This document shows, piece after piece, positions 1-3,000 of a stretch of DNA of 50,823 bases. The stretch's first letter is position 1. Each line of letters begins with the position of its first letter. Source of the stretch: a virus (Duplodnaviria > Heunggongvirae > Uroviricota > Caudoviricetes); IMG/VR virus record IMGVR_UViG_2721755725_000006, one strand, 5' to 3'. The position numbers are program-made.

Positions 1-3000
1 CGTCAACCTCATCAGTCGGAGTTTCTTGCTAACCAGCGATGCGCGCCAGCTTCGGTTTTAAACGTTTTACTTTTGGTATACGTCATCGCGGTAAACGTAC
101 CGTCCTGGTTGGGAAACACGCCGCATACCAGAGATTCGCTGTTGCCAAGATCGATAGTATCCATGCTGACCTCATTTCCCCTTAACGCCGGGGTAGCGGA
201 ACAAAAACCTGCTGCATAGTTATTAAAGTTGAACCCTGCCGTCATGTTCTTACGCCTCGGGCTGGCTACTTACCCCCTGACCACTGCCTGGTAACTCGAA
301 GTATTGCCCTGCGTTCTGTGGGACGGGGTGGGTTGGTATGAAAGGAAGGATACCCATGGGTATTTAAAAAGTAAATACCCATGGGTAATTTTTTGATGTG
401 TCTTAACTGGTGACTGGTTGTTTGGTGAGTTATGATGCGTTTTGTGCTTTCTTTTTACGGATTTCTTCGTAGATCATATTGTAATACTGTTTTTTCTCTT
501 CAAGAGTTTTTAATAAGTTATCCGCTTCACTTTCTGGCAGTTCGTCTAAGAGATCTAAAAAAATACGTTGTCGTGGCGTTAGAACCCTTGTTTCATAATT
601 GGAGGCTGTGTTCGTTGATGATGAAACGATACCATCCATCCATCCCCGGGGTAACCCAAAGGACTCTTCTATAATCTCCACCATATCATCAGCGATCCGT
701 TTTTTTCCTTTTTTCCCCTCTGGGTACAACATTCTTGATACATAAGAAGGCTCGCGACCGATCTTTCTGGCCACGTTAACCGCTTTACCATCGCATTTCT
801 CATCACGAATTTTGATGAGTTGTTGTCGTCTAAATTCATATTTGTCCATAGGTAAATAATAGATGCGATTACCGCAAGGTAAACAACCCAAGGGTATTGA
901 CTTTTGTTTACCTGTGGGTATTCTTGCTGTGTTTACTAAGGAGTAGCTATGGAAGAATTAAGAATATTTCTCAATTCTCTTTCGTCAGATGAACAGCGTA
1001 TGTTTGCATGTGAGTGTGGTACTAGCATCGGTTATCTAAGAAAGGCATTGAGTAAAGGTCAAATGTTAGGGGCATCGTTATGTGTCCTTATTGAGCGAGC
1101 CAGTAATGGTGAAGTTACACGTCAGCAACTAAGGCCTTTTGATTGGATGAATATTTGGCCCGAGCTGGAAGATACCAAAACGTTAACACAACCACTTACT
1201 AGGAGCTTGATTCATGAAAATCAAGCATGAACACATCCGCATGGCGATGAATGCCTGGGCGCGTCCTGATGGCGAAAAAGTTCCAGCAGCTGGAATAACC
1301 CAGGCTTATTTTGAGTTGGGTATGACGTTTCCTGAACTGTATGACGACAGCCATCCGGAAGCCCTGGCTCGCAATACCCAGAAAATTTTCCGCTGGGTAG
1401 AGAAAGACACCCCTGATGCAGTTGAAAAAATTCAGGCGTTGTTACCAGCGATCGAAAAGGCAATGCCACCTTTGCTGGTGGCCAGAATGCGCAGCCACAG
1501 TTCAGCTTATTTTCGGGAGCTGGTGGAGACGCGGGAGCGACTGGTGAGAGACGCTGATGATTTTGTCGCAGTGGCAATCGCCGGTTTCAATCAGATGAAC
1601 CGTGGTGGCCCGGCAGGAAATGCTGTGGCAGTACATTGACTGACAATAGCCGTATCGAATCGCTTCCGGCAACTCGTGAGTAAAAAGATTCGGTATCAGA
1701 AGAGGTGAGTATGGCTAACGCCTGGCTCAGATTATGGCATGACATGCCAAATGACCCTAAGTGGCGAACAATTGCCAGGGTGTCAGGGCAGCCAATTGCA
1801 ACAGTGATGGCAGTGTATATCCACCTCCTGGTGAGCGCGTCACGAAATGTCACGCGAGGTCACATTGATGTCACGACAGAAGATTTGGCAAGTGCGCTCG
1901 ACGTGACAGAAGAGGTAATTGATTCAATTTTGCAGACGATGCAGGGGCGGGTACTTGATGGTGATTTAATCACTGGATGGGAAAAACGCCAGGTGCTTAA
2001 AGAGGACAACGGCAATATTTCGCAAACCGCAAAATCTCCTGCAGAGCGCAAGAGGGCGCAGCGAGAGAGGGAAAGAAAGCGGGAACAAAATGGCGATTGT
2101 CACGGCGCGTCACGAAATGTCACGCACATGTCACGACGAGTCACGACAGATAAAGATACAGATAAAGATACAGATCAAGAAGATCAAAACACTATGGTCC
2201 ATGGCGTAAAAAACGCCACGAACCAGGCAGGGGATGTTCAGACCGTCAATCCTGGTCAGCCAGCAGGCACGACACCGGAAGCCGATTCAGCGTATGCGCT
2301 GAAAGCCGATTCGGGCGCTGTGCAGCAGGTGATGACCGCAAGGCCGGAGCAATCACACCAACTGCAGCAGCCTGAAGCCGATTCCGCCATTCAGCGGGAA
2401 GCCGATCGGGTAGTCCCGGAAAACACCGGGCAGCCTGTGGGACGAGTGGATTATCCGGATGTGTTCGAACAGGTCTGGCGGGAATACCCGTTGCGTGCTG
2501 GGGCAAACCCGAAGAAATCCGCTTTCAGTGCCTGGAAGGCCAGATTACGCGAGGGGGTGCCACCAGAGGCCATACTGGATGGTGTGAGGCGTTACGCAAG
2601 ATACCTGGCGGCTACCGGGAAAACGGGAACGGAATTTGTTCAGCGAGCGACGACGTTTTTTGGGCCGGACCGGAATTTTGAAAACCCCTGGTTGCTCCCG
2701 GTAAGCGGCACGAACAACCAGCGTTGTGTGAATCATATTTCTGAACCGGATACCGAAATTCCGCCGGGATTCAGGGGGTGATGTGGCATGAAAAACATTG
2801 CGGCAGCCGGGGTTCTTGAACGTATTCGCAGACTTGCACCACAGGCGTCGGTTCCACCGTACCGGACGGTGGAGGAGTGGCGGGAATGGCAACTTGTTGA
2901 AGGACGAAAACGCAGCGAGGAGATTAACCGCCAGAATCACCAGTTGCGGGTGGAAAAAATCCTGAATCGTTCGGGCATCCAGCCTCTGCACAGCAAATGC

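What the first reader, a model, noticed from the sequence alone, without database searches (positions are those of the whole stretch)
1839..2176. Two iteron arrays inside the replication initiator gene mark the probable origin
GTCACG (or GTCACA) recurs four times at 1839-1875 and five times at 2099-2145 with 10-11 bp spacing, followed by tandem GATAAAGATACA copies and an A-rich tract. This is the lambda-like arrangement of ori inside the O gene. The repeats also impose short peptide repeats (SRNVTRGHIDVTT / SRNVTHMSRRVTT) on the protein.
Basis: partly seen in the sequence, partly recalled or inferred. Interest (0 to 1): 0.4.

Follow-up and report, generated by a model that had tools for sequence, protein, structure and literature searches.

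The report
Two-part phage origin inside initiator gene
Two clusters of a six-base repeat inside a prophage replication gene are very probably the sites where that gene's own protein binds to start phage DNA copying; this is a familiar idea in an undescribed two-cluster form that is common in E. coli.

Summary
GTCACG/GTCACA occurs at 1839, 1849, 1859 and 1870, inverted at 1902, and at 2099, 2109, 2119, 2130 and 2140. That is 10 copies in 307 bp against 0.29 expected.

The repeat is a DNA signal, not a peptide repeat:
- It is read in all three frames (VT, G/C-H, SR).
- It exceeds every synonymous-codon shuffle.
- Population variants fall in the spacers, not the hexamers.

The host gene (1711-2781) encodes a "replisome organizer", not a lambda O homologue. 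It has an N-terminal helical, weakly winged-helix-like domain, a disordered linker, and a C-terminal domain shared with SPP1 G38P. A DnaC-like loader gene follows.

Both arrays keep their gene positions and 10/11-bp phasing in homologues down to about 45% identity, across Gamma-, Beta- and Alphaproteobacteria. The core switches in both arrays together (GTCACG, GTAACG, CGAACGC, GCAACG). In natural domain swaps the repeat type follows the N-domain only.

Array 2 is followed by the most AT-rich tract of the gene (2146-2194) and a conserved hairpin (2195-2225).

Best reading: a two-part, iteron-type phage origin. Origin firing itself is untested. It is a new variant of a known kind, of moderate interest.

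The parts
1711..2781 (+). Replisome-organizer (initiator) gene, 356 aa. It has an N-domain at about aa 1-95 plus a helix at 110-127, a disordered linker at aa 128-244, a C-domain at aa 245-332, and a C-terminal tail.
   Evidence: The ORF is; homologues start MAN..., so the ATG at 1711 is the start. It matches phrog_3729 'replication initiation protein' at 1.6e-257. Sources name it 'phage replisome organizer'. AF2 models give the domain layout.
1839..1875 (+). Iteron array 1: four direct copies (1839, 1849, 1859 GTCACA, 1870) spaced 10/10/11 bp. It encodes aa 43-55, at the end of helix 3 and in the following low-confidence, length-variable loop of the N-domain.
   Evidence: The array sits at the same gene position in homologues.
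1902..1907 (-). Inverted iteron copy, 32 nt after the last direct copy of array 1.
   Evidence: Found. It is kept at +32 in all GTCACG-type homologues, and some have two inverted copies 10 bp apart. It is lost in 1 of 80 near-identical contigs.
2099..2145 (+). Iteron array 2: five direct GTCACG copies (2099, 2109, 2119, 2130, 2140) spaced 10/10/11/10 bp. It encodes aa 130-145 in the disordered linker.
   Evidence: Population variants fall only in the spacers. It shares a 21-nt exact stretch with array 1.
2146..2194 (.). AT-rich tract, the probable DNA unwinding element. It holds the 12-bp tandem ACAGATAAAGAT (2146-2181) and two GATC sites (2173-2176, 2182-2185).
   Evidence: It is the AT-richest 40 bp of the gene: 75% AT against a 46% gene mean. 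GC is 30% at 2150-2199. The AT maximum directly follows array 2 in 9 of the first 10 homologous genes checked and in the distant phages. The 12-bp unit varies from 2 to 4 copies.
2195..2225 (.). Conserved hairpin/palindrome: TGGTCCATGGCGT-AAAAA-ACGCCACGAACCA.
   Evidence: Inverted repeat I17. It looks like a terminator on the minus strand. The DNA fold z-score is -3.55 here and -2.1 to -6.4 in 8 homologues, with paired changes in the outer stem. It is kept in L092 despite a different N-domain, and is absent in L088 and L093.
2710..2778 (+). Codons for the C-terminal tail (...VNHISEPDTEIPPGFRG), a probable contact for the helicase loader or helicase.
   Evidence: It matches the end of NCBIfam DnaT and the end of Rac YdaU (hhalign E 5.8e-5). 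Homologues that sit next to lambda-P-like loaders carry a different tail.
2788..3534 (+). DnaC/IstB-like helicase-loader gene immediately downstream.
   Evidence: Pfam IstB_IS21 at 2.8e-19, NCBIfam PRK12377 at 5e-153, and phrog_50 'DnaC-like helicase loader'.
885..924 (+). Context: a promoter-like site (897-924) flanked by two palindromic operator-like sites (885-896, 909-920). It would drive rightward transcription of the cro-like, cII-like, rep and loader genes through the origin.
   Evidence: Function is inferred from position only.

Best explanation
Region 1839-2225 is the phage's replication origin, embedded in the gene for its own initiator, a two-domain replisome organizer.

Inferred mechanism:
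1. N-terminal domains of the protein bind the 6-7 bp core (T)GTCACG(A/C), one per helical turn. They line up on one face of the DNA at two arrays about 230 bp apart: array 1 with its inverted copy, and array 2.
2. The loaded arrays, probably brought together by protein-protein contacts into a wrapped or looped complex, destabilise the adjacent AT-rich tract (2146-2194). The hairpin-forming palindrome (2195-2225) lies at its far edge.
3. The C-terminal domain and its IPPGFRG tail then recruit the phage DnaC-like loader with host DnaB helicase onto the opened DNA.
4. Rightward early transcription runs through the site, as in lambda.

What is shown here: the repeats are selected at the DNA level, they are conserved in position and phase, and they track the N-domain. 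What is inferred: binding, looping, unwinding and helicase loading.
For: 1. The clustering is not chance: 10 copies in 307 bp against 0.29 expected.
2. Selection acts on the DNA.
- The same hexamer is read in three frames.
- The hexamer count exceeds all 5000 synonymous-codon shuffles in 10 of 12 genes; in the window it is 10 against a mean of 4.5 and a maximum of 9.
- In 80 near-identical contigs, 5 distinct substitutions hit the 17 spacer nt of array 2 and none hit its 30 hexamer nt, about P 0.004 by my own arithmetic.
3. The layout is conserved.
- Both arrays keep their gene positions and 10/11-bp phasing in homologues from E. coli, Salmonella, Serratia and Yersinia, and in phages of Aeromonas, Pseudomonas and Ralstonia.
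- An unbiased phased-6-mer statistic reaches 2 or more in 40 of 52 species-level genes and in 0 of 98 control segments.
4. The specificity changes are concerted. The core is GTAACG, GCAACG or CGAACGC in both arrays of other lineages. Arrays within one gene share 21-39 nt exact stretches, spacers included.
5. Natural domain swaps point to the N-domain.
- With the same N-domain and a DnaT-type C-domain, GTCACG is kept (L093).
- With an unrelated N-domain and the same C-domain, GTCACG is absent. AAGGGGCTT at 11-bp phasing replaces it, again in two arrays 256 bp apart (L092).
6. The neighbouring cII-like and Cro-like proteins do not track the repeat type.
7. The AT-richest tract directly follows array 2, and a conserved hairpin follows that.
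8. The gene and its neighbour fit an initiator plus helicase-loader pair. The C-domain shares phrog_1701 with SPP1 G38P. G38P's origin, made of iterons plus an AT-rich DUE, lies inside its own gene and has been reconstituted in vitro (PMC5737612).
Against: - There is no experimental evidence of binding, unwinding or autonomous replication for this family. I found no paper on it.
- I could not identify residues that co-vary with the iteron core.
- 12 of 52 homologous genes show 0-1 phased pairs with my statistic.
- The hairpin is confined to one linker/C-domain type; L088 and L093 lack it. Its conservation cannot be fully separated from that of the NTMVHGEKNA peptide it encodes.
- Binding sites inside a gene could serve regulation rather than initiation.
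Confidence: 0.75

Rival explanations
1. The arrays are genuine Rep-binding sites, but their main job is regulatory rather than initiating. Possible roles are autoregulation or a roadblock for the rep-loader operon, copy control by handcuffing, or a fork barrier like SPP1 oriR. DNA opening would then happen elsewhere. Alternatively only array 2 is the origin and array 1 is a control element.
For: Both arrays lie inside the transcribed operon upstream of the loader gene. Lambda and TP901-1 each show a single mid-gene repeat cluster. SPP1 G38P binds a second, non-initiating site, oriR (PMC5737612, PMC6316719). Array 1 lies about 230 bp from the AT-rich tract.
Against: The AT-richest tract of the gene abuts array 2 in nearly all homologues. 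That is the canonical iteron-plus-DUE signature. No other repeat or AT-rich candidate was seen next to the replication genes. The two arrays co-evolve as one unit.
Confidence: 0.13
2. The hexamers are binding sites for a different protein, not for the product of the gene they sit in. Candidates are a host factor or the neighbouring cII/YdaT-like or Cro/YdaS-like regulator.
For: No direct binding data exist. Short phased sites could suit many HTH proteins. The cII-like gene lies immediately upstream.
Against: The cII-like proteins are 96% identical between the window (GTCACG) and L092 (AAGGGGCTT), and 89% identical between L085 (GTCACG) and L081 (GTAACG). The Cro-like proteins are only 16-30% identical among GTCACG carriers. 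Different cores occur within E. coli prophages and follow the Rep N-domain. No DnaA-box or IHF consensus lies in 1600-2900.
Confidence: 0.05
3. There is no DNA-level function. The repeats would be by-products of a repetitive peptide or of slippage and duplication in tolerant coding segments.
For: Both arrays lie in structurally tolerant parts of the protein, a loop and a disordered linker. Copy number varies between lineages. The adjacent 12-bp unit is length-polymorphic.
Against: One hexamer is read in three frames, giving unrelated dipeptides. The count exceeds every synonymous shuffle. The 10/11-bp phase is not a multiple of 3. The hexamers are invariant while the spacers vary. The layout is conserved across three proteobacterial classes.
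Confidence: 0.02

Closest known systems
Bacillus phage SPP1 oriL / replisome organizer G38P
   Same: The origin lies inside the initiator's own gene and consists of direct repeats bound by the initiator plus an adjacent AT-rich DUE. The initiator has no AAA+ domain and works with a separate helicase loader (PMC5737612, PMC6316719). The C-terminal domains share a profile: phrog_1701 matches G38P aa 119-240 at 2.4e-11 and the window protein aa 122-356 at 8.3e-63.
   Different: Direct profile comparison is not significant. The window protein does not hit Phg_2220_C, which G38P does. The repeat sequences differ. In gene 38 the tools found repeats only in the middle of the gene, whereas here a second array lies in the N-domain coding part. 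The partner loader here is DnaC/IstB-like rather than G39P.
ori-lambda inside gene O
   Same: Repeats lie in the inter-domain linker coding region of the initiator gene and are followed by an A-rich, AT-rich tract (PMC6022878). The gene sits in the early rightward operon after cII-like and cro-like genes. By my own knowledge, ori-lambda also has a palindrome beyond the AT-rich tract.
   Different: There is no sequence homology to O. Lambda iterons are 18-bp units of hyphenated dyad symmetry, each bound by an O dimer, four in a single cluster (PMC6022878). Here the sites are asymmetric 6-7 bp cores every 10-11 bp, arranged in two arrays with an extra inverted copy. The loader here is DnaC-like, not P.
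Lactococcal P335-type phages (TP901-1 ORF13, Tuc2009 Rep2009): replisome organizers with ori in their own genes
   Same: These replisome organizers bind direct repeats within their cognate genes, and those repeats serve as ori (summarised in PMC8965321). The window N-domain gives its only Pfam signal to the related Phage_rep_org_N model, although below threshold.
   Different: TP901-1 rep shows one mid-gene cluster with a period of about 15 bp. It carries HTH_36 and DnaB_2 domains, and neither matches the window protein.
Satellite phage P4 ori/crr (recalled from memory, not tested here)
   Same: Short octamer sites for the initiator are arranged in two separate clusters, both needed for replication.
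   Different: The P4 clusters are kilobases apart, and the initiator is a primase-helicase. No homology is expected. This is a functional analogy only.

Membership tests
Lambda O / ori-lambda type | The initiator has the Phage_rep_O N-terminal domain (homology to lambda O). | tested here: not met
   No Pfam hit even at E up to 10. hhalign of alignment A1 against lambda O gives probability 0.1%.
Lambda O / ori-lambda type | Iterons of about 18-19 bp with internal dyad symmetry. | tested here: not met
   The core is an asymmetric 6-7 bp (T)GTCACG(A/C) every 10-11 bp. The lambda iterons were read for comparison.
Lambda O / ori-lambda type | The repeats lie inside the initiator gene and are followed by an AT-rich tract. 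| tested here: met
Phage replisome organizer (SPP1 G38P / Phage_rep_org_N / Phg_2220_C) | The N-terminal Phage_rep_org_N domain (PF09681 / TIGR01714) scores above its curated threshold. | tested here: not met
   PF09681 scores 15.9 bits against a cut-off of 23.3, and TIGR01714 scores 15.4 against 49.8. The match is full-length but sub-threshold.
Phage replisome organizer (SPP1 G38P / Phage_rep_org_N / Phg_2220_C) | The C-terminal domain is homologous to that of G38P. | tested here: inconclusive
   Both proteins hit phrog_1701 over their C-terminal parts. However, PF09524 does not hit the window protein, and the direct hhalign is not significant.
Phage replisome organizer (SPP1 G38P / Phage_rep_org_N / Phg_2220_C) | The initiator has no ATPase domain, and a separate helicase-loader gene sits adjacent. 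| tested here: met
   The Rep protein gives no NTPase hits, and a DnaC/IstB-like gene starts 7 nt after its stop codon.
Phage replisome organizer (SPP1 G38P / Phage_rep_org_N / Phg_2220_C) | The protein binds the repeats and the fragment supports replication. | not testable with these tools
   This needs EMSA or footprinting and an origin-plasmid assay.
Iteron-type origin (generic) | Three or more direct repeats are phased with the DNA helical repeat, next to a DNA unwinding element. | tested here: met
   There are 4 and 5 copies at 10-11 bp spacing. The tract directly after array 2 is 75% AT.
Iteron-type origin (generic) | The repeat sequence co-varies with the cognate initiator's DNA-binding domain. 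| tested here: met
   Core switches occur in both arrays together, and the repeat type follows the N-domain in domain swaps, not the C-domain or the neighbouring genes.
Winged-helix DnaD-NTD-like origin-binding domain | The N-domain adopts a winged-helix fold similar to the DnaD N-terminal domain. | tested here: inconclusive
Rac prophage YdaU / oriJ module | Homology to YdaU (DUF1376). | tested here: not met
   Only the last 23 residues align (hhalign E 5.8e-5). ydaU carries different internal repeats, (A/G)ATGTTCAA.

The most novel reading that the evidence does not exclude
This is a self-contained, two-part origin module in which one iteron array is written into the coding sequence of a loop of the very domain that reads it. 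The two arrays are kept alike by gene conversion, so they change specificity together with the domain (GTCACG, GTAACG, GCAACG, CGAACGC). This would create separate replication-specificity groups among co-resident prophages. Both arrays would be needed, through looping or wrapping of about 230 bp, to open the adjacent AT-rich tract. That mode of origin melting would be distinct from the single-cluster lambda, SPP1 and TP901-1 origins.
Probability: 0.35. Interest if true: 0.6.

Novelty: new variant of a known kind. Interest (0 to 1): 0.45.

Why it matters
This gene family is common. A match covering at least 80% of the gene is present in 1647 of 5426 complete E. coli genomes. In the records listed it is mostly annotated as a hypothetical protein, and the two phage records I inspected carry no origin feature.

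Locating the probable origin and its recognition code has three uses:
- It gives a testable minimal replicon for a major class of lambdoid prophages, which includes prophages of pathogenic E. coli.
- It offers a marker for replication-specificity types.
- It provides a natural series of matched initiator and site variants for studying how origin specificity evolves while the sites overlap coding sequence in three reading frames.

Tried and rejected
- Foldseek of the full-length AF2 model against PDB gave nothing significant, because the model is dominated by the disordered linker. A profile search of PDB sequences gave only a spurious hit.
- Direct hhalign against lambda O and SPP1 G38P was not significant. 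Only the PHROG profile bridge links the window protein to G38P.
- I looked for N-domain residues that separate the GTCACG, GTAACG and CGAACG classes. No clean discriminating columns emerged, and relatedness confounds the comparison.
- No DnaA boxes or IHF consensus sites lie in or near the region.
- The promoter scan found only one weak minus-strand match inside array 2, at chance frequency.
- Searches for the motif, for the family and for Rac oriJ found no description of these repeats. The 'Eru' papers on non-lambdoid Stx-phage replication modules do not discuss origins. The TP901-1 and r1t primary papers are not held.
- The first viral-contig scan returned only near-identical copies. These proved useful only for the population test.
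- Generalising the hairpin failed: the GGCG...CGCC form is confined to the enterobacterial linker type.
- I considered a peptide-repeat origin and binding by neighbouring regulators, and rejected both.
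Full report
**Observation.**
- The hexamer GTCACG (once GTCACA) starts at 1839, 1849, 1859 and 1870, and at 2099, 2109, 2119, 2130 and 2140 on the plus strand. A tenth copy is inverted at 1902-1907.
- Spacings are 10/10/11 and 10/10/11/10 bp.
- The other 47 GTCACR matches (both strands) are scattered over the remaining 50.5 kb. Ten copies in 307 bp compare with 0.29 expected, a window-wide Poisson probability of about 1e-10. No shuffle gave more than 5 copies in 320 bp.
- The 12-bp tandem ACAGATAAAGAT (2146-2181) and the GC trough (30% at 2150-2199) are real.

**Setting.** The repeats lie in a 356-aa ORF (1711-2781) within a lambdoid early-right operon:

| Coordinates | Strand | Gene |
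|---|---|---|
| 430-849 | minus | repressor |
| 949-1230 | plus | Cro/YdaS-like |
| 1214-1639 | plus | cII/YdaT-like |
| 1711-2781 | plus | this gene |
| 2788-3534 | plus | DnaC/IstB-like loader |
| 3556-4272 | plus | DUF1627 |

- The product matches phrog_3729 'replication initiation protein' end to end (1.6e-257). Sequence databases name it 'phage replisome organizer'.
- It is not a lambda O relative. It gives no Phage_rep_O signal, and hhalign gives probability 0.1%.

**The repeat is a DNA signal, not a peptide repeat.**
- A 10/11-bp period is not a multiple of three, so successive copies fall in different frames.
- I kept each protein fixed and permuted synonymous codons. The hexamer count exceeds all 5000 permutations in 10 of 12 genes. 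In the window it is 10 against a mean of 4.5 and a maximum of 9.
- In 80 near-identical viral contigs, five distinct substitutions fall in the 17 spacer bases of array 2. None falls in its 30 hexamer bases. By my own hypergeometric arithmetic this is about P 0.004.
- Array 1 shows one hexamer hit in 1 of the 80 contigs. The inverted copy is lost in one other.

**Conservation.**
- I fetched DNA for nine homologues at 45-90% protein identity.
- In each of them the most frequent 6-mer of the gene is the repeat core.
- The copies form two arrays at the same gene positions, nt about 129-181 and about 389-484. Phasing is 10/11 bp, with 2-6 copies per array. An inverted copy sits 32 nt after array 1 in the GTCACG lineages.
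- Three lineages use GTAACG in both arrays.
- Phages of Aeromonas and Pseudomonas keep GTCACG. Ralstonia phage Firinga uses GCAACG, and an environmental podovirus uses CGAACGC. All have the two-array layout.
- In a scan of one genome per species, I scored each gene by the number of consecutive 10/11-nt spacings of its best 6-mer. The score is 2 or more in 40 of 52 genes and in 0 of 98 flanking control segments. The cores found were GTCACG (24), CGAACG/GAACGC (13) and GTAACG (5). The genera span Gamma-, Beta- and Alphaproteobacteria.

**Who reads the repeats.** Natural domain swaps answer this indirectly.
- L093 has the same N-domain joined to a DnaT-type C-domain, next to a lambda-P-like loader. 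It keeps both GTCACG arrays and the inverted copy.
- L092 has an unrelated N-domain (16% identity) joined to the same linker end and C-domain. It has no GTCACG. Instead it carries AAGGGGCTT at 11-bp phasing, again in two arrays 256 bp apart.
- The upstream cII-like protein is 96% identical between the window and L092, and 89% identical between a GTCACG and a GTAACG carrier. The Cro-like proteins are only 16-30% identical among GTCACG carriers.
- Only the Rep N-domain tracks the repeat type.
- Within a gene the two arrays share exact stretches that include spacers: 21 nt in the window, 27 nt in L081 and 39 nt in L082. This suggests homogenisation between the arrays.

**Anatomy of the whole element.**
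- AF2 models place array 1 (aa 43-55) at the end of helix 3 and in a low-confidence, length-variable loop of the N-domain. They place array 2 (aa 130-145) at the start of a disordered linker (aa 128-244).
- The AT-richest 40 bp of the gene (70-82% AT against a 44-51% mean) directly follows array 2 in 9 of the first 10 genes examined and in the distant phages.
- A 13-bp-arm palindrome (2195-2225) follows. It folds well as single-stranded DNA here (z -3.55) and in eight homologues (z -2.1 to -6.4).
- The outer stem differs between lineages but stays paired: GGTTCA/TGAACC, GTCC/GGAC, GGTGC/GCGCC.
- The palindrome goes with this linker/C-domain type, L092 included. It is missing in L088, L093 and most distant homologues, so I treat it as an accessory part.

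**Protein.**
- Pfam Phage_rep_org_N aligns full-length but below threshold.
- The C-terminal part shares phrog_1701 with SPP1 G38P.
- The last 23 residues (…IPPGFRG) match the C-terminal ends of DnaT and of Rac YdaU. Homologues that sit beside lambda-P-like loaders carry a different tail. This fits a loader- or helicase-recruiting motif.

**Mechanism (inferred).**
- Initiator N-domains occupy the phased sites on one face of the DNA at both arrays.
- The resulting complex strains and opens the adjacent AT-rich tract.
- The C-domain and tail bring in the DnaC-like loader with host DnaB.
- Early rightward transcription passes through the site.
- No DnaA box or IHF consensus is present.

**Comparison with known systems.** Origins inside initiator genes are classical:
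- In lambda, four 18-bp dyad-symmetric iterons are followed by a 39-bp AT-rich tract (PMC6022878).
- In SPP1, iterons plus a DUE within gene 38 are sufficient for replication in vitro (PMC5737612, PMC6316719).
- In TP901-1 and Tuc2009, direct repeats lie within the replisome-organizer gene (PMC8965321).

In lambda and TP901-1 the annotation and tools show a single mid-gene cluster, and in SPP1 gene 38 repeats only in the middle of the gene. The present family differs in four ways:
- very short asymmetric cores, one per helical turn;
- a second array inside the DNA-binding-domain coding region;
- an inverted copy;
- concerted core switching.

I found no publication describing it.

**Verdict.**
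- The element runs from 1839 to 2225.
- My confidence that these are initiator-binding iterons is about 0.85. My confidence that the element is the functional origin is about 0.75.
- It is a new variant of a known kind. Interest is moderate. The gene is matched over at least 80% of its length in 1647 of 5426 complete E. coli genomes and is usually unannotated.

Noticed in passing
L092 3186-3215 and 3441-3474: An E. coli prophage initiator has an unrelated N-domain but the same C-domain. It carries a different repeat, AAGGGGCTT, at 11-bp phasing, again in two arrays 256 bp apart. The array is followed by a QEQEQE low-complexity tract and then the same hairpin. This looks like a second, parallel instance of the two-array design.
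   Followed up: partly
window 2710-2778 (aa 334-356): The C-terminal tail ...VNHISEPDTEIPPGFRG matches the C-terminal ends of E. coli DnaT (NCBIfam) and Rac YdaU, which are otherwise unrelated. Homologues next to lambda-P-like loaders have a different tail. It is a candidate short motif for recruiting the DnaC-type loader or the helicase.
   Followed up: partly
L101 (E. coli K-12 Rac ydaU) 1763-2063: ydaU contains its own internal repeats, (A/G)ATGTTCAA, at about 1763, 1848, 1974, 2007, 2040 and 2052, with spacings of 33/33/12 among the last four. They are candidate oriJ iterons inside the Rac initiator gene.
   Followed up: no
window 2275-2310 and 2371-2406: A 36-nt direct repeat lies 96 bp apart in the linker and encodes a PEADSA... 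motif twice. The 324-aa homologue P0004 lacks exactly 32 aa between these points. This is consistent with recombination between the repeats producing the length variants.
   Followed up: partly
window 2146-2181; L019, L033: The 12-bp unit ACAGATAAAGAT varies between 2 and 4 copies among otherwise near-identical viral contigs. The length of the AT-rich tract is therefore polymorphic.
   Followed up: partly
window 351-387 and 885-920: There are four copies of the palindrome TACCCNNGGGTA. Two are perfect copies 25 bp apart, just beyond the 3' end of the repressor gene, and together they form a 16-bp-arm hairpin. Two are one-mismatch copies flanking the promoter-like site 897-924 between the repressor and cro-like genes. 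These are probable operators.
   Followed up: no
window 10607-10858 and 11064-12677: A cluster of three tRNA genes (Met-CAT, Arg-TCG, Arg-TCT) is followed by an IS66-family transposase on the minus strand. This is the position where Stx-type prophages usually carry cargo genes. An AraC-type regulator lies at 9865-10578.
   Followed up: partly
window 6141-6315, 14168-14340, 17847-17963: Rfam matches above the gathering score: sok antitoxin RNA (a hok/sok-type module), sRNA STnc100, and an ALIL pseudoknot (the frameshift signal of an IS3-family element).
   Followed up: no
L084, L088, L090, L091: Several prophages or phages carry this initiator, including near-identical copies in phages Tritos and vB_EcoS-640R1. 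They have no DnaC-like or P-like loader gene next to it; a DUF977/LygF or TrmB-like gene follows instead. They may rely on the host loader.
   Followed up: no
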